The notes under the pieces are model-generated. The model made no database searches, had not been told where the DNA came from, and saw nothing but the letters and a program-made list of their open reading frames with translations. The position numbers and the translations under genes were made by a program. Positions 9,963 through 11,548 of a stretch of DNA of 64,000 bases are shown in pieces. Origin of the DNA: Candidatus Omnitrophota bacterium (GTDB lineage: Bacteria > Omnitrophota > Gorgyraeia > Zapsychrales > Zapsychraceae); the NCBI GenBank assembly GCA_029261055.1, contig JAJDCA010000068.1:69275-133274 (forward strand), written 5' to 3'. The first letter of the stretch is position 1. Every line of letters starts with the position of its first letter.

Positions 9963-10799
9963 TCAAATTTTATAACTATTTTCATTTTTTCCTTTTCCAT
10001 ATTCACAAAATAATGCATCCTGCTCCATCATTTGCTCTGCCAATCTTAAGTGCTCCTTGGTATCAACGCTTACTATAGGGACCGAAGAAGAAACCATCCT
10101 TACCTGAAAACCATTTTCCAACAATCTAAGCATGTCAATCGATTCCAGCTTTTCCAAAGGGGTTCTAGAAAGACGCGTAAAATCAAAAAGCGAACTATAT
10201 CGATAGGCATTAATCCCAAACTCTTTATATCGTGGTAAAGTGCCATTGTGACCTCCTTTTTTGGAAGAAGGAATCGGTTCGCGGGAATAATAAAGAGCAT
10301 TACCCGTTTTGTCAACCACCACCTTAACAATATCAGGACTAAAAAATTCTTCTTCCCTCACTATTGCCCCCATCATATCCGTGAACATTACTGTATCCTC
10401 ATTGAGCAAGGGTGCTATCAATAGCTCAAGCGATTCGGGCGCAACCAATGGCATATCTCCCTGTACGTTTACAATAATGTCAGCGCTAACATTTTGGGCA
10501 GCCTCAGCAACACGGTCAACACAACTTTCATGCCGGTCAGAAGTCATAACCACTTTCCCACCAAAACGTTCTACCTCCTGCGCAATTTCTCGATCGCAAG
10601 TTGCAACTATAACACAACTTAAAAAATCACACAATAAAACTCTTCGACGTACATGCTCAATCATGGGTAGACCGCATATTTTCATCAAAGGTTTTCCGGG
10701 AAACCGGGTAGATGCCATACGGGCAGGTATTATAGCGGTCACTGAGCTCATATATTTACCGTCGTTATATTTTTTAATTCTTTTAATTGTTCGCGACAT
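9963..10799 (-). CDS. KdsB-like CMP-3-deoxy-ulosonate cytidylyltransferase (CMP-Kdo synthetase family)
   Basis: AIIPARMASTRFPGKPL matches the KdsB/CMP-sugar synthetase N-terminal signature (IPAR.aStRlPgKpL). Likely real start at the internal MSSVTAIIPAR (~10751), abutting the upstream aldolase stop. Confidence 0.8.
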   Translation of the reverse strand: MSRTIKRIKKYNDGKYMSSVTAIIPARMASTRFPGKPLMKICGLPMIEHVRRRVLLCDFLSCVIVATCDREIAQEVERFGGKVVMTSDRHESCVDRVAEAAQNVSADIIVNVQGDMPLVAPESLELLIAPLLNEDTVMFTDMMGAIVREEEFFSPDIVKVVVDKTGNALYYSREPIPSSKKGGHNGTLPRYKEFGINAYRYSSLFDFTRLSRTPLEKLESIDMLRLLENGFQVRMVSSSVPIVSVDTKEHLRLAEQMMEQDALFCEYGKGKNENSYKI

Positions 10800-11548
10800 T
10801 TCTCTCCCAACAACAAAAAATCTACTCCAAAAGCTATAAAAGAATACCCTTCTTGAGCTTTACTTTGTGCAACCTCAACTTCAGGATGGACAACATGAAA
10901 GCCGAAAGGTTTAGAGTGATGTTCCATGGTTTTTTGAATCGTTTTAAGCGCATTGAGCACATCGGGATGGTCAAATTGACCAGGAACACCTAAAGAAGCG
11001 GATAGATCATACGGTCCGATCATACACCCATCAATACAATCGACAGATAATATCGCATCAAGGTTGTTCACAGCCTCAATATGCTCGATCTGCACAATAA
11101 CTGTACTTTCTTCCGCAACCCAACGACAATATTCTTTAAACGTAGTTCCATATCCATGCGTACGGGCAAGCCCCACTCCCCTTTTCCCTTGAGGAGGATA
11201 TTTTACCGCCTCAACAGCTTGTCTGGCTTCTTCTGGAGTATTAACCATAGGCACGATCACACCACTTGCCCCAGAATCCATAACACGTTTAATTATCGTA
11301 GGATCATTTTCACCGACTCTTACTAAACCTGGAATGCCGCATAATTGAATAACACGAATTAATTCCTCAGCTACCTTTATACCAATCGAACTGTGCTCCA
11401 TATCAACGACCAGCCATTCAAATCCTGCCTTGGCCATAATTTCGGTAATGGATGGATTCGGGATCGTAACCCATGATCCAATTGAAAACTTCTGACCATC
11501 AGATGGCAATTTAAAAGATACCGGCAAATTATTGTGAGATATTTTCAA
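10748..11548 (-). CDS. HpcH/HpaI family (class II, pyruvate-dependent) aldolase
   Basis: GIPGLVRVGENDPTIIKRVMDSGASGVIVPMVNTPEEARQAVEAVKYPPQGKRGVG follows the HpcH/HpaI 2-keto-3-deoxy-acid aldolase core. TTG start. Confidence 0.8.
   Translation of the reverse strand: MKISHNNLPVSFKLPSDGQKFSIGSWVTIPNPSITEIMAKAGFEWLVVDMEHSSIGIKVAEELIRVIQLCGIPGLVRVGENDPTIIKRVMDSGASGVIVPMVNTPEEARQAVEAVKYPPQGKRGVGLARTHGYGTTFKEYCRWVAEESTVIVQIEHIEAVNNLDAILSVDCIDGCMIGPYDLSASLGVPGQFDHPDVLNALKTIQKTMEHHSKPFGFHVVHPEVEVAQSKAQEGYSFIAFGVDFLLLGEKCREQLKELKNITTVNI

What the first reader, a model, noticed from the sequence alone, without database searches (positions are those of the whole stretch)
9963..11548. KdsB-like CMP-transferase coupled to an HpcH/HpaI pyruvate aldolase: second, PEP-independent route to a CMP-activated ulosonic acid
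The locus already has a NeuB-type (PEP-condensing) synthase with a NeuA-family CMP-transferase (20339-21370 and 16799-17566). Separately, a KdsB-family cytidylyltransferase is translationally coupled to a class II pyruvate aldolase of the HpcH family, with a 2-hydroxyacid dehydrogenase nearby. That suggests a second 2-keto-3-deoxy acid sugar made by aldol addition of pyruvate to an aldehyde and then CMP-activated. Two distinct CMP-ulosonate branches in one locus is unusual, and the aldolase route is not the classical KdsA/NeuB chemistry.
Basis: inference. Interest (0 to 1): 0.65.

Follow-up and report, generated by a model that had tools for sequence, protein, structure and literature searches.

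The report
Aldolase plus CMP-transferase sugar-acid cassette
A pyruvate aldolase gene overlapping a KdsB-like CMP-transferase gene belongs to a widespread, uncharacterised cassette in bacteria and archaea that most likely builds and CMP-activates an unknown keto-acid sugar without the usual PEP-dependent synthase.

Summary
10748-11548(-) is an HpcH/HpaI class II aldolase with all four catalytic positions intact. 9963-10751(-) is a KdsB-like cytidylyltransferase whose ATG overlaps the aldolase stop codon (ATGA).

The pair is neither a catabolic aldolase nor a housekeeping kdsB. In 84 loci found with the aldolase, a cytidylyltransferase lies on the same strand within 4 genes in 73. At least 20 of the 80 public genome loci come from archaea, Chloroflexota, CPR bacteria, Firmicutes and Actinobacteria, which I expect to lack Kdo-lipid A. 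The aldolase clade is about 53% self-identical but only 28-38% identical to E. coli GarL and YfaU.

Accessory genes fall into alternative sets. Phosphate handling is by a HAD phosphatase, an IMPase-like phosphatase, or, as in this window, an AroB-like phospho-lyase (TIGR04425) with an SDR.

Best reading (about 0.55): pyruvate is added to a probably phosphorylated sugar aldehyde, the phosphate is removed, and the 2-keto acid sugar is CMP-activated. The sugar's identity and the dehydrogenase's role are unresolved. I found no paper or curated family describing the cassette. Two such branches in one locus is recurrent (17 of 84 loci), not unique.

The parts
10748..11548 (-). HpcH/HpaI-family class II (metal-dependent) pyruvate aldolase. 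It belongs to a distinct orthologous clade that is linked to cytidylyltransferases.
   Evidence: Pfam PF03328, 134 bits. It scores below every NCBIfam equivalog cut-off: HpaI 195/369, GarL 185/393 and 182/407, RhmA 162/441. H52, R77, E155 and D181 align with GarL H50, R75, E153 and D179 and are conserved in 84 of 84 orthologs. H156, Y180 and H218 are specific to the clade.
9963..10751 (-). KdsB-like CTP:ulosonate cytidylyltransferase ('CT4' clade), translationally coupled to the aldolase.
   Evidence: The ATGA start/stop overlap is visible in the sequence and in an independent gene call. CTP_transf_3 scores 166 bits. NF009905 scores 280 against a cut-off of 255. The best solved relative is KpsU, 1GQ9, E=4.7e-44. 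Identity to E. coli KdsB is 38%. The KdsB motifs IPAR..S.R.PGKPL, QGD.P, SR.PIP and VDT are kept.
9198..9953 (-). Methyltransferase (Methyltransf_24), specific to this lineage's version of the cassette. It probably O-methylates the sugar.
   Evidence: Pfam E=2e-7. It has no homolog in the other 83 aldolase loci. Other methyltransferases occupy the equivalent position next to CT4 in 22 loci.
7607..9184 (-). 525-aa protein of unknown function lying inside the module.
   Evidence: No Pfam or NCBIfam match. No homolog in the other aldolase loci.
6355..7449 (-). GFO/IDH/MocA-family NAD(P) oxidoreductase. It is a constant member of the 'B-type' accessory set.
   Evidence: Pfam. It co-occurs with the AroB-like gene in 13 of 14 loci, with the IMPase-like gene in 7 of 7, and with the HAD gene in 0 of 35.
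5409..6380 (-). D-isomer 2-hydroxyacid dehydrogenase, most similar to short phosphoglycerate dehydrogenases. It is a near-universal cassette member whose role is unresolved.
   Evidence: Pfam. PGDH TIGR01327 scores 191 bits, below its cut-off of 454. The best solved relative is 1WWK, E=1.8e-45. It is present in 56 of 84 loci, and in 40 of the 50 loci with at least 8 kb on both sides.
4656..5396 (-). Classical SDR (FabG-like) ketoreductase, always paired with the AroB-like gene.
   Evidence: Pfam adh_short. It is adjacent to the AroB-like gene in 13 of 14 loci and in 4 of 4 independently retrieved loci, where the two genes overlap by 8 nt.
3581..4678 (-). AroB-related putative sugar-phosphate phospho-lyase (TIGR04425).
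   Evidence: TIGR04425 scores 425.5 bits against a cut-off of 400. aroB TIGR01357 scores 272.7, below its cut-off of 305. The best solved relatives are all dehydroquinate synthases. The dehydroquinate synthase motifs are kept, except the Lys of E. coli AroB's 'EVIKYG' motif. Identity to E. coli AroB is 27%.
11741..13573 (-). NodU/CmcH-type O-carbamoyltransferase immediately upstream of the aldolase. It is probably a tailoring enzyme for the same sugar.
   Evidence: Pfam Carbam_trans_N/C, 354 and 242 bits. Homologs lie in 6 other aldolase loci, and one sits between CT4 and GFO in L090.
17563..19398 (-). TIGR04326-like surface-carbohydrate protein. It is a candidate transferase for a CMP-sugar, but which branch it serves is uncertain.
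   Evidence: NCBIfam TIGR04326 E=1.4e-17, below its cut-off. Homologs lie in 6 other aldolase loci in the strict clustering, 3 of which have no NeuB; BLAST at E<=1e-5 finds 8 loci.
20339..21370 (-). PseI (pseudaminic acid synthase). This is the separate PEP-dependent branch and is context only, not part of the module.
   Evidence: TIGR03586, 449 bits against a cut-off of 340.
16799..17566 (-). Second cytidylyltransferase ('CT25' type), which pairs with NeuB homologs in other loci. Context only.
   Evidence: CTP_transf_3, 118 bits. It is 24% identical to the KdsB-like enzyme. CT25-NeuB adjacency is seen in L007, L017 and L075.

Best explanation
The two genes are the core of a dedicated biosynthetic cassette (about 3581-13573 in this window). 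It makes a CMP-activated 2-keto acid sugar separately from the pseudaminic acid branch.

Proposed steps, marked as shown or inferred:
1. The class II aldolase binds pyruvate through its Mg2+ site and adds it to a sugar aldehyde, giving a 4-hydroxy-2-oxo (3-deoxy-2-ulosonic) acid. Catalytic competence is shown by residue conservation. The substrate is inferred.
2. The acceptor is probably a sugar phosphate (inferred). Every accessory set carries a phosphate-removing function: a HAD phosphatase, an IMPase-like phosphatase, or an AroB-like phospho-lyase with an SDR.
3. In this window the AroB-like enzyme would oxidise the substrate, eliminate the terminal phosphate and re-reduce it. The SDR would then reduce the resulting methyl ketone. 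The product would be a terminally deoxygenated ulosonic acid (inferred). The AroB-like enzyme keeps dehydroquinate synthase's DAHP-type motifs, so a seven-carbon skeleton (pyruvate plus a tetrose 4-phosphate) is the most specific guess. I hold it with low confidence.
4. The GFO oxidoreductase and the 2-hydroxyacid dehydrogenase perform redox steps that are not yet assignable. The methyltransferase and the carbamoyltransferase decorate hydroxyl groups (inferred).
5. The KdsB-like enzyme attaches CMP to the anomeric C2 hydroxyl (inferred from family chemistry). A Maf-like, TIGR04326-like or other transferase then uses the donor.

The overall logic parallels the Kdo pathway KdsD-KdsA-KdsC-KdsB, with a pyruvate aldolase taking the place of the PEP-dependent synthase.
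For: Linkage of aldolase and cytidylyltransferase:
- Of 84 loci (80 from public genomes), 73 have a cytidylyltransferase on the same strand within 4 genes, and 77 have one within 9 kb. Five of the seven without one are cut within about 2 kb of the aldolase on at least one side, and a sixth has only 4.6 kb downstream.
- The KdsB-like type is always immediately downstream. The gap is 10 nt or less in 19 of 22 adjacent cases.
- Two unrelated cytidylyltransferase lineages pair with one aldolase clade: a KdsB-like type and a PseF/NeuA-like type that share about 18% identity. This points to a CMP-ulosonate product.
- Aldolase-CT4 pairs occur without any accessory set or 2-hydroxyacid dehydrogenase in L012, L034, L058 and L071.

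The aldolase as the likely synthase:
- 14 loci have MptE/Maf-like transferase genes beside the cassette and no NeuB anywhere in the roughly 20-kb locus. That leaves the aldolase as the only candidate C-C bond-forming enzyme.
- A YhcH/NanQ-like anomerase sits between the cytidylyltransferase and the aldolase in Flavobacteriia.
- The aldolase catalytic residues are conserved in 84 of 84 orthologs. The clade does not split by cassette type.

Phosphate handling:
- HAD occurs in 35 loci, IMPase-like in 7 and AroB-like in 14, with no overlap among the 84.
- The IMPase-like gene and the SDR+AroB-like pair occupy the same operon position after GFO-SIS-2HADH.
- Four AroB-like orthologs retrieved independently of the aldolase all sit in HpcH-CT-GFO-SIS-2HADH-SDR-AroB operons.

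Not a Kdo supply for LPS:
- Orthologs occur in Methanoperedens, Methanoregula, Hadarchaeum, Micrarchaeota, Dehalococcoidia, Saccharibacteria, Syntrophomonas and an actinobacterium.
- No kdsA, kdsC, kdsD, waaA or lpx gene lies in the 64-kb window.
Against: - No biochemical data exist, and the product is not identified.
- The near-universal 2-hydroxyacid dehydrogenase has no necessary role in a simple aldol-phosphatase-CMP scheme.
- The GFO and extended-SDR enzymes, the Pgl-like lactonase and the cyclase-family hydrolase fit an oxidative aldose to aldonate to 2-ketoaldonate route at least as well.
- If the AroB-like enzyme behaved as a true dehydroquinate synthase, its product would be a carbocycle. 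A carbocycle could not serve as a glycosyl donor. My deoxygenation reading assumes that it releases the ring-opened methyl ketone instead.
- One metagenomic locus carries both an AroB-like set and a 2HADH-epimerase-HAD set, so the phosphate handlers are not strictly exclusive.
- The window lacks the SIS isomerase that the other AroB-type cassettes have.
- The cytidylyltransferase passes the TIGR00466 kdsB cut-off, so true CMP-Kdo synthetase activity is not excluded.
Confidence: 0.55

Rival explanations
1. Oxidative route. The accessory enzymes make a non-deoxy 2-ulosonic acid without forming a C-C bond. A ketose phosphate is isomerised (SIS) to an aldose phosphate. Its C1 is oxidised (GFO or extended SDR) to a lactone, which is hydrolysed (Pgl-like or cyclase-family hydrolase) to an aldonate phosphate. 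C2 is oxidised (2-hydroxyacid dehydrogenase) to a 2-ketoaldonate phosphate. The phosphate is removed and the acid is CMP-activated. The aldolase would then act only as an auxiliary enzyme, for example epimerising C3/C4 by enolisation or by retro-aldol and aldol steps.
For: - This scheme gives every accessory enzyme a chemically ordinary job.
- The SIS protein is most like the phosphoheptose isomerase GmhA, and the Pgl-like protein passes the 6-phosphogluconolactonase cut-off (159 against 124 bits).
- The extended SDR has weak matches to an SDR-type glucose-6-phosphate dehydrogenase and to erythronate dehydrogenase.
- GFO-SIS-2HADH form a tight sub-operon.
- A heptose 7-phosphate origin would also give the C7 skeleton that the AroB-like enzyme seems built for.
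Against: - It leaves the one universal and tightly coupled enzyme, the aldolase, without a clear role.
- Aldolase-cytidylyltransferase pairs occur without any of the oxidative enzymes.
- The aldolase keeps a full aldolase catalytic set.
Confidence: 0.15
2. Acyl side-chain route. The aldolase makes a 2-keto-3-deoxy acid. The 2-hydroxyacid dehydrogenase reduces it to a 3-deoxyaldonic acid, and a methyltransferase methylates it. The acid then decorates the pseudaminic-type sugar of the neighbouring branch, like the 2-methoxy-4,5,6-trihydroxy-hexanoyl group on the Treponema denticola flagellin nonulosonic acid.
For: - The T. denticola glycan structure (PMC13439194) is formally a reduced, O-methylated 2-keto-3-deoxyhexonate. 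That is what aldolase + phosphatase + D-2-hydroxyacid dehydrogenase + methyltransferase would make (my inference).
- It explains why the dehydrogenase is near-universal.
- It explains the frequent methyltransferase next to the cytidylyltransferase (22 loci).
- It explains the co-occurrence with NeuB clusters (17 of 84 loci).
Against: - A KdsB- or NeuA-type cytidylyltransferase has no known role in activating a carboxylate for amide formation.
- Reducing C2 would destroy the anomeric centre these enzymes use.
- Most cassettes (67 of 84) have no NeuB nearby, and 14 carry Maf-like transferases instead.
- I could not check whether T. denticola has this aldolase.
Confidence: 0.1
3. The product is ordinary Kdo, or a close 8-carbon isomer, made from a pentose (5-phosphate) and pyruvate. 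A KpsU-like, polysaccharide-specific CMP-Kdo synthetase then activates it. On this reading the route is unusual but the sugar is not new.
For: - The cytidylyltransferase's best solved relative is the capsule-specific CMP-Kdo synthetase KpsU, and it passes the TIGR00466 cut-off.
- A Kdo aldolase activity that splits Kdo into pyruvate and arabinose is a known enzyme activity (from memory, EC 4.1.2.23).
- The isomerase and phosphatase members mirror KdsD and KdsC.
Against: - The SIS protein resembles GmhA, not KdsD.
- The AroB-like enzyme keeps dehydroquinate synthase-type (DAHP, C7) motifs, and a dehydroquinate synthase-type elimination cannot remove an 8-phosphate from Kdo-8-P (mechanistic reasoning from the mechanism described in PMC7144000).
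- PseF-like cytidylyltransferases replace the KdsB-like one in about half of the loci.
- The heavy tailoring (methyl, carbamoyl, radical SAM) suggests something other than plain Kdo.
Confidence: 0.1
4. Coincidence of ordinary genes: a housekeeping kdsB for LPS core Kdo that happens to lie next to a catabolic HpcH-family aldolase.
For: Databases annotate the cytidylyltransferase orthologs as 3-deoxy-manno-octulosonate cytidylyltransferase. Some sources call the aldolase orthologs 2-dehydro-3-deoxyglucarate aldolase.
Against: - The pair has a 4-nt start/stop overlap, and the linkage is conserved across phyla and domains.
- Orthologs occur in organisms that I expect to lack LPS.
- The aldolase falls below every catabolic equivalog cut-off and is only 28-38% identical to GarL and YfaU, against about 53% within its own clade.
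- Catabolic hpaI genes on plasmids are at most 39% identical, while a 46% hit on an Acuticoccus plasmid is again followed by cytidylyltransferase, PGDH-like, HAD and oxidoreductase genes.
- No dehydratase or transporter of a catabolic operon lies nearby.
Confidence: 0.02

Closest known systems
Kdo pathway (KdsD isomerase, KdsA synthase, KdsC phosphatase, KdsB/KpsU CMP-Kdo synthetase)
   Same: The final enzyme is a true homolog: 38% identical to E. coli KdsB, with KpsU as the best solved relative. The overall logic is the same, and the accessory sets include a SIS isomerase and HAD or IMPase-like phosphatases.
   Different: The C-C bond-forming enzyme is an HpcH-fold class II pyruvate aldolase, not the PEP-dependent KdsA. 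Extra redox enzymes are present (2-hydroxyacid dehydrogenase, GFO or SDR). There is no lipid A or core context. Orthologs occur in archaea and in bacterial lineages that I expect to be monoderm.
Nonulosonic acid pathways (NeuB/PseI/LegI synthase + NeuA/PseF/LegF; the animal NANS-NANP-CMAS route)
   Same: These also condense a C3 unit with a sugar, remove a phosphate where one is present, and CMP-activate the product. PseF-like cytidylyltransferases and Maf-like transferases accompany about half of the aldolase cassettes.
   Different: The module has no NeuB-family synthase. The donor is probably pyruvate rather than PEP. In this window a complete PseI branch exists separately.
Catabolic HpcH-family aldolases GarL, YfaU/RhmA and HpaI
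   Same: Same fold, and the same catalytic His/Arg and metal ligands Glu/Asp. These enzymes reversibly join pyruvate to aldehydes.
   Different: Identity is 28-38%, against about 53% within the clade. The window protein is below all equivalog cut-offs. H156, Y180 and H218 are clade-specific, next to the metal ligands. The gene context is biosynthetic, not catabolic.
3-Dehydroquinate synthase (AroB) and the sugar phosphate cyclases
   Same: The AroB-like member keeps the NAD, metal and substrate motifs of dehydroquinate synthase, and its best solved relatives are dehydroquinate synthases. Dehydroquinate synthase acts on a 3-deoxy-2-ulosonate 7-phosphate by oxidation, phosphate elimination and re-reduction (PMC7144000).
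   Different: It is a distinct family: above the TIGR04425 cut-off and below the aroB cut-off, and 26-32% identical to E. coli AroB. The Lys of the 'EVIKYG' motif is not conserved. There is no shikimate context, and it is always paired with an SDR inside this glycan cassette.
Treponema denticola flagellin glycan (2-methoxy-4,5,6-trihydroxy-hexanoyl pseudaminic-type acid)
   Same: Its acyl group has the carbon skeleton expected from pyruvate plus a triose, followed by 2-keto reduction and O-methylation (PMC13439194). The window combines a Pse branch with an aldolase, a 2-hydroxyacid dehydrogenase and methyltransferases.
   Different: That substituent is amide-linked and needs no CMP-transferase. 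No genetic link to this aldolase has been shown.

Membership tests
KdsB / CMP-Kdo synthetase | CTP_transf_3 fold with the KdsB motifs: N-terminal P-loop-like IPAR..S.R.PGKPL, QGDEP, and the C-terminal VDT Asp | tested here: met
   Pfam, 166 bits. The motifs are aligned to E. coli KdsB and conserved across the clade.
KdsB / CMP-Kdo synthetase | Scores above the curated equivalog cut-offs | tested here: inconclusive
   TIGR00466 170.3 against 155.2 (passes). NF003948 192.4 against 281 (fails). It passes the subfamily models NF009905 and NF003952.
KdsB / CMP-Kdo synthetase | Functional context of Kdo-lipid A synthesis (kdsA/kdsC/kdsD, waaA, lpx), or restriction to LPS-producing bacteria | tested here: not met
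   No such genes lie in the 64-kb window. Orthologs coupled to the aldolase occur in archaea, Chloroflexota, CPR bacteria and Firmicutes.
KdsB / CMP-Kdo synthetase | Kdo is the physiological substrate | not testable with these tools
   This needs an enzyme assay.
HpcH/HpaI class II aldolase superfamily | PF03328 domain with the catalytic His and Arg and the metal ligands Glu and Asp | tested here: met
   H52, R77, E155 and D181 are conserved in 84 of 84 orthologs. The residue roles in GarL are recalled from memory.
Catabolic equivalogs HpaI / GarL / RhmA | Score above the equivalog cut-off, and a catabolic operon context | tested here: not met
   195/369, 185/393, 182/407 and 162/441 bits. Identity is 28-38%. 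All neighbours are glycan-biosynthesis genes.
PEP-dependent ulosonate synthases (NeuB/PseI/LegI, KdsA) | A NeuB (PF03102) or DAHP_synth_1 domain in the synthase of the branch | tested here: not met
   The only NeuB-family gene is PseI at 20339-21370, which has its own cytidylyltransferase. 14 cassettes with Maf-like transferases have no NeuB in the locus.
3-Dehydroquinate synthase (aroB equivalog) | Score above the TIGR01357 cut-off, and a shikimate-pathway role | tested here: not met
   272.7 against a cut-off of 305. It instead passes TIGR04425 (425.5 against 400). It is always found inside this cassette.
TIGR04425 AroB-related putative sugar phosphate phospho-lyase | Score above the trusted cut-off | tested here: met
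   The family is a 'hypothetical equivalog', meaning it has no assigned substrate.
Pseudaminic acid branch (context) | A PseI equivalog with a neighbouring cytidylyltransferase, aminotransferase and acetyltransferase | tested here: met
   PseI 449/340 bits. DegT aminotransferase at 25828-26973 and hexapeptide transferase at 23051-23719. Cytidylyltransferase at 16799-17566.

The most novel reading that the evidence does not exclude
The cassette defines a new, domain-spanning class of CMP-activated acid sugars. The carbon skeleton is made by a class II pyruvate aldolase instead of a PEP-dependent synthase. In the AroB-type version present in this window, a dehydroquinate synthase-like phospho-lyase plus a ketoreductase deoxygenates the terminal carbon, giving for example a methylated or carbamoylated 3,7-dideoxy-hept-2-ulosonic acid. 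That would be a new use of dehydroquinate synthase chemistry in glycan biosynthesis. It would also mean that many database 'KdsB' annotations in archaea and monoderm bacteria are wrong.
Probability: 0.3. Interest if true: 0.8.

Novelty: new variant of a known kind. Interest (0 to 1): 0.62.

Why it matters
CMP-activated ulosonic acids (Kdo, sialic, pseudaminic and legionaminic acids) are key surface determinants. As far as I know, all described biosynthetic routes use PEP-dependent KdsA- or NeuB-type synthases.

A conserved aldolase-based cassette would add a new entry point to this chemistry, and probably a new sugar. Each of the three database searches (aldolase, cytidylyltransferase, AroB-like protein) scored several thousand homologs. 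The cassette reaches archaea, CPR bacteria, Chloroflexota, Firmicutes, Planctomycetota (including anammox-family Brocadiaceae and Scalinduaceae), Bacteroidota and others.

If the reading is right, it would:
- correct widespread 'CMP-Kdo synthetase' and 'dehydroquinate synthase' annotations;
- give a function to TIGR04425;
- give glycan chemists a defined gene set for finding the product. The five-gene cassette on the Acuticoccus plasmid could be expressed heterologously.

Tried and rejected
Searches that led nowhere:
- Literature. Ten full-text searches found no paper linking HpcH aldolases to KdsB, nonulosonic acids, flagellin glycosylation or polysaccharide clusters.
- SugarBase preprint. 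Its CMP-sugar tables list only nitrogen-containing sugars and report no CMP-sugar for E. coli K12. They therefore say nothing about a nitrogen-free ulosonic acid.
- Maf/Kdo preprint. It concerns promiscuous use of the E. coli CMP-Kdo pool, not a new pathway.
- Kdo-binding residues of KdsB. PMC3149649 did not list them, so substrate-pocket conservation in the cytidylyltransferase was not assessed.
- Published residue roles of dehydroquinate synthase. Two papers were not held. The residue-role mapping therefore rests on my memory of the A. nidulans structure. The motif conservation itself is shown.
- T. denticola glycan paper (PMC5182079). Not held.

Things I could not determine:
- Source organism. 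The exact-sequence look-up returned no names, and the genome scan did not return the window's own genome. A TIGR04326 (LIC13510-family) hit suggested Leptospira. However, every window protein is a singleton cluster and the nearest aldolase is only 75% identical. The source is more likely a sparsely sampled lineage. It remains unknown.

Ideas considered and rejected:
- A phosphonate (PEP mutase) pathway: the protein is HpcH, not PEP_mutase.
- The AroB-like gene as the organism's aroB: see the family scores and its constant cassette context.
- A carbocyclic (quinate-like) CMP adduct as the main reading: such a compound could not act as a glycosyl donor. This is not excluded.

Technical note: my first neighbourhood clustering lost 17 aldolase ORFs to antisense ORFs. 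I redid it with homology-weighted ORF choice.

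
Full report
**Observation**

- 10748-11548(-) encodes a 266-aa HpcH/HpaI-family protein (Pfam E=5.5e-39).
- 9963-10799(-) encodes a CTP_transf_3 cytidylyltransferase (E=1.1e-48). NCBIfam places it in KdsB-like subfamilies: NF009905 280 bits against a cut-off of 255, and TIGR00466 170 against 155. It is below the equivalog NF003948 (192 against 281).
- The homology-supported start of the cytidylyltransferase is the ATG at 10751. It overlaps the aldolase stop codon as ATATGA. An independent gene call on a public copy of the contig gives the same 4-nt overlap. 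Translational coupling is therefore real.
- The items cited as context are also right: PseI at 20339-21370 (449 bits against 340), a second cytidylyltransferase at 16799-17566, and a D-2-hydroxyacid dehydrogenase at 5409-6380.
- All ORFs of at least 200 aa in the 64-kb window lie on the minus strand, and those with a family match are glycan-biosynthesis genes.

**Anatomy of the module in the window**

In transcription order, downstream of the pair:

| Coordinates (-) | Gene |
|---|---|
| 9198-9953 | Methyltransferase |
| 7607-9184 | 525-aa protein with no family match |
| 6355-7449 | GFO/IDH/MocA oxidoreductase |
| 5409-6380 | 2-hydroxyacid dehydrogenase |
| 4656-5396 | FabG-like SDR |
| 3581-4678 | AroB-related protein |

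- The AroB-related protein passes TIGR04425, 'AroB-related putative sugar phosphate phospholyase (cyclizing)', at 425.5 bits against 400. It misses the true aroB model (272.7 against 305).
- Immediately upstream of the aldolase lies a NodU/CmcH-type carbamoyltransferase (11741-13573).

**Comparative genomics**

- The aldolase has thousands of database relatives at 55-75% identity. So does the cytidylyltransferase, whose relatives are uniformly annotated 'CMP-KDO synthetase' where any name is given.
- A scan of one genome per species returned 80 loci at 48-62% identity. They come from Nitrospinota, Planctomycetota, Desulfobacterota, Omnitrophota, Bacteroidota, Verrucomicrobiota and Campylobacterota. 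They also come from four archaea (Methanoperedens, Methanoregula, Hadarchaeum, Micrarchaeota), nine Dehalococcoidia/Chloroflexota, two CPR bacteria, four Firmicutes and one actinobacterium.
- I called and clustered ORFs in 84 loci. Counts are:
  - A cytidylyltransferase lies on the same strand within 4 genes in 73 loci and within 9 kb in 77. Five of the seven without one are cut within about 2 kb of the aldolase on at least one side, and a sixth has only 4.6 kb downstream.
  - The partner is either a KdsB-like type ('CT4', 42 loci) or a PseF/NeuA-like type ('CT3', 45 loci). CT4 is always immediately downstream, with a gap of 10 nt or less in 19 of 22 adjacent cases. CT3 is usually immediately upstream.
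  - The two types share only about 18% identity.

**Neither housekeeping nor catabolic**

- The aldolase clade is about 53% self-identical across bacteria and archaea. It is 28-38% identical to E. coli GarL and YfaU.
- The window aldolase is below every catabolic equivalog cut-off.
- Its catalytic positions H52, R77, E155 and D181 are conserved in 84 of 84 orthologs. H156, Y180 and H218 are clade-specific.
- In 72,556 plasmids, every catabolic hpaI-type hit is at most 39% identical. The single 46% hit, on an Acuticoccus plasmid, is followed by a cytidylyltransferase, a PGDH-like dehydrogenase, a HAD hydrolase and an NAD(P) oxidoreductase. PGAP gives all of them generic names.
- The CT4 clade is 40-64% identical to the window protein and 32-41% identical to E. 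coli KdsB, with the KdsB catalytic motifs intact.
- The window holds no kdsA, kdsC, kdsD, waaA or lpx gene.
- Together with the occurrence in archaea and in bacterial lineages that I expect to lack LPS, this rules out ordinary LPS-Kdo supply as the general function.
- I could not test whether this particular genome has another kdsB.

**Cassette architectures**

Besides aldolase and cytidylyltransferase, a PGDH-like 2-hydroxyacid dehydrogenase is present in 56 of 84 loci, and in 40 of the 50 loci with long flanks. The remaining genes fall into alternative sets:

| Type | Genes |
|---|---|
| A | Extended SDR + HAD phosphatase, with or without a cyclase-family (PF04199) hydrolase. In Flavobacteriia, a YhcH/NanQ-like anomerase and a Pgl-like lactonase. 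|
| B1 | GFO + GmhA-like SIS isomerase + IMPase-like phosphatase |
| B2 | GFO + SIS + FabG-like SDR + AroB-like. This window is B2, but it lacks SIS. |

- HAD (35 loci), IMPase-like (7) and AroB-like (14) never co-occur among the 84 loci.
- HAD goes with the extended SDR in 34 of 35 loci and never with GFO.
- IMPase-like (7 of 7) and AroB-like (13 of 14) go with GFO.
- Four AroB-like orthologs retrieved independently of the aldolase all sit in HpcH-CT-GFO-SIS-2HADH-SDR-AroB operons. One of those loci also carries a 2HADH-epimerase-HAD set, so exclusivity is strong but not absolute.
- Aldolase sequences do not segregate by cassette type. The aldolase reaction is therefore probably the same everywhere.
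- Aldolase-CT4 pairs also occur without any accessory set (L012, L034, L058, L071).
- 14 cassettes carry MptE/Maf-like transferase genes and no NeuB anywhere in the locus.
- A NeuB homolog co-occurs in 17 of 84 loci. The window's two-branch arrangement is recurrent.

**Mechanism**

What is shown:
- a catalytically intact class II pyruvate-aldolase fold;
- a catalytically intact KdsB-like nucleotidyltransferase;
- their coupling, and their conserved association with phosphate-removing enzymes, redox enzymes, methyl- and carbamoyl-transferases and candidate CMP-sugar transferases.

What is inferred:
- The aldolase adds pyruvate to a sugar aldehyde that usually carries a terminal phosphate.
- The phosphate is either hydrolysed (HAD or IMPase-like) or eliminated (AroB-like).
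- The free 2-keto acid sugar is cytidylylated at its anomeric hydroxyl.

This is the logic of KdsD-KdsA-KdsC-KdsB with an aldolase in place of KdsA.

The AroB-like enzyme points to the sugar's size.
- It keeps the dehydroquinate synthase motifs: GGG..D, RG, PTTLL.Q.DS..G.K..IN, KN..G.F, GE, IK....DE....R...N.GH.FGHA.E, HG.AV..GM and DKK.
- From my memory of the A. nidulans structure, these include the residues that bind the carboxylate and phosphate of DAHP.
- Dehydroquinate synthase oxidises C5, eliminates the 7-phosphate and re-reduces C5. Ring opening and aldol closure then follow largely spontaneously (PMC7144000).
- I therefore guess that the intermediate is a C7 2-ulosonate 7-phosphate, from pyruvate plus a tetrose 4-phosphate.
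- I further guess that here the ring-opened 6-keto-7-deoxy product is reduced by the obligatorily paired SDR, giving a 7-deoxy sugar that can still cyclise and be CMP-activated.
- This last part is speculative. A carbocyclic outcome is not excluded, but a carbocycle would not be a glycosyl donor.

**Rival explanations**

1. Oxidative route (about 0.15).
   - Isomerase, then aldose-1-dehydrogenase (GFO or extended SDR), lactonase (Pgl-like or cyclase-family), 2-hydroxyacid dehydrogenase and phosphatase.
   - It explains every accessory enzyme. It fits the GmhA-like SIS and the Pgl-like protein that passes its cut-off.
   - It leaves the aldolase, the one universal and tightly coupled enzyme, without a role. 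It does not fit the stand-alone aldolase-CT4 pairs.
2. Acyl side-chain route (about 0.1).
   - Aldolase, 2-keto reduction and O-methylation would give exactly the 2-methoxy-4,5,6-trihydroxy-hexanoyl group reported on the T. denticola flagellin pseudaminic-type acid (PMC13439194).
   - It explains the dehydrogenase and the methyltransferases.
   - It does not explain the cytidylyltransferase or the many cassettes without a NeuB.
3. Ordinary Kdo made by an unusual route (about 0.1).
4. Coincidental housekeeping and catabolic genes (about 0.02).

**Comparison with what is known, and novelty**

- The cytidylyltransferase is a KdsB-family member by fold and motifs, but not by context or taxonomic range.
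- The aldolase belongs to the HpcH superfamily but to none of its characterised equivalogs.
- The AroB-like protein belongs to a curated family that still has no assigned substrate.
- NCBIfam release 20 (June 2026) and PGAP give only generic names. The ten full-text searches found no description of the association.
- I rate it a new variant of a known kind: a CMP-ulosonate-type pathway with a different class of synthase, and possibly a new phosphate-elimination step.
- It is widespread and directly testable. The main weaknesses are that the product is unknown and the dehydrogenase's role is unexplained.

Noticed in passing
window 42373-45189 and 57543-60422 (with 62060-63646): There are two separate sets of split transketolase genes (N- and C-terminal subunits), each next to an APH-family kinase. 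An HldE-like kinase/nucleotidyltransferase lies at the window's right end. They look like further cassettes for unusual activated sugars, and they could also supply odd sugar phosphates.
   Followed up: no
window 48981-56673: An FkbH-domain protein (309 bits) lies near a DltB-like MBOAT membrane acyltransferase and two GDSL/SGNH-like proteins. This suggests a glyceryl or other acyl decoration system for the polysaccharide.
   Followed up: no
window 7607-9184, 13561-15609, 27691-29874, 39557-41227, 41196-42386: Five large ORFs (396-727 aa) have no significant Pfam match (13561-15609 has only a sub-threshold TPR hit). The two that were compared (7607-9184 and 13561-15609) have no homolog in the other 83 aldolase loci. 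The first of these sits inside the aldolase module.
   Followed up: partly
window 11576-11737 (-): A 53-aa hydrophobic ORF starts 3 nt after the carbamoyltransferase stop and ends 27 nt before the aldolase start. It has no Pfam match. It could be a small membrane partner of the carbamoyltransferase, or it could be spurious.
   Followed up: partly
window 911-1609 (-) and L006:18636-19334: The PIG-L-family deacetylase at the end of the module is 70% identical to a gene at the end of the aldolase cassette of a Planctomycetales MAG. The aldolases of the same two loci are only about 56% identical. This suggests recent exchange of cassette parts, and it hints that an N-acetylated intermediate may be involved.
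   Followed up: no
window 29876-32068 (-): A 730-aa fusion joins an RmlD-like reductase/epimerase domain to a DegT-type aminotransferase.
   Followed up: no
L086 (Acuticoccus sp. plasmid NZ_CP094833.1, 40686-45138): This is a minimal five-gene cassette on a 97-kb plasmid of a cultured marine alphaproteobacterium: aldolase, NeuA-family cytidylyltransferase, PGDH-like dehydrogenase, HAD hydrolase and NAD(P) oxidoreductase. It is a convenient unit for heterologous expression.
   Followed up: partly
JGI metagenome locus (no DNA held): One aldolase and one cytidylyltransferase are accompanied by both a GFO-SIS-2HADH-SDR-AroB set and a second 2HADH-epimerase-HAD set. The accessory sets are therefore independent modules, each with its own 2-hydroxyacid dehydrogenase.
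   Followed up: no
loci L001-L084 generally: Two cytidylyltransferase lineages pair interchangeably with one aldolase clade: a KdsB-like type and a PseF/NeuA-like type with about 18% identity. B12-radical SAM and SPASM radical SAM genes are frequent neighbours, and the window has one at 2459-3379. This suggests C-methylation or other radical tailoring.
   Followed up: partly
window 1-64000: All ORFs of at least 200 aa across the 64 kb are on the minus strand, with uniformly negative GC skew and about 38% GC. Every window protein I looked up is a singleton, or nearly so, at 90% identity in a 15-billion-protein collection. The source lineage is therefore sparsely sampled. It is not a well-sequenced Leptospira species, despite a LIC13510-family hit.
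   Followed up: partly
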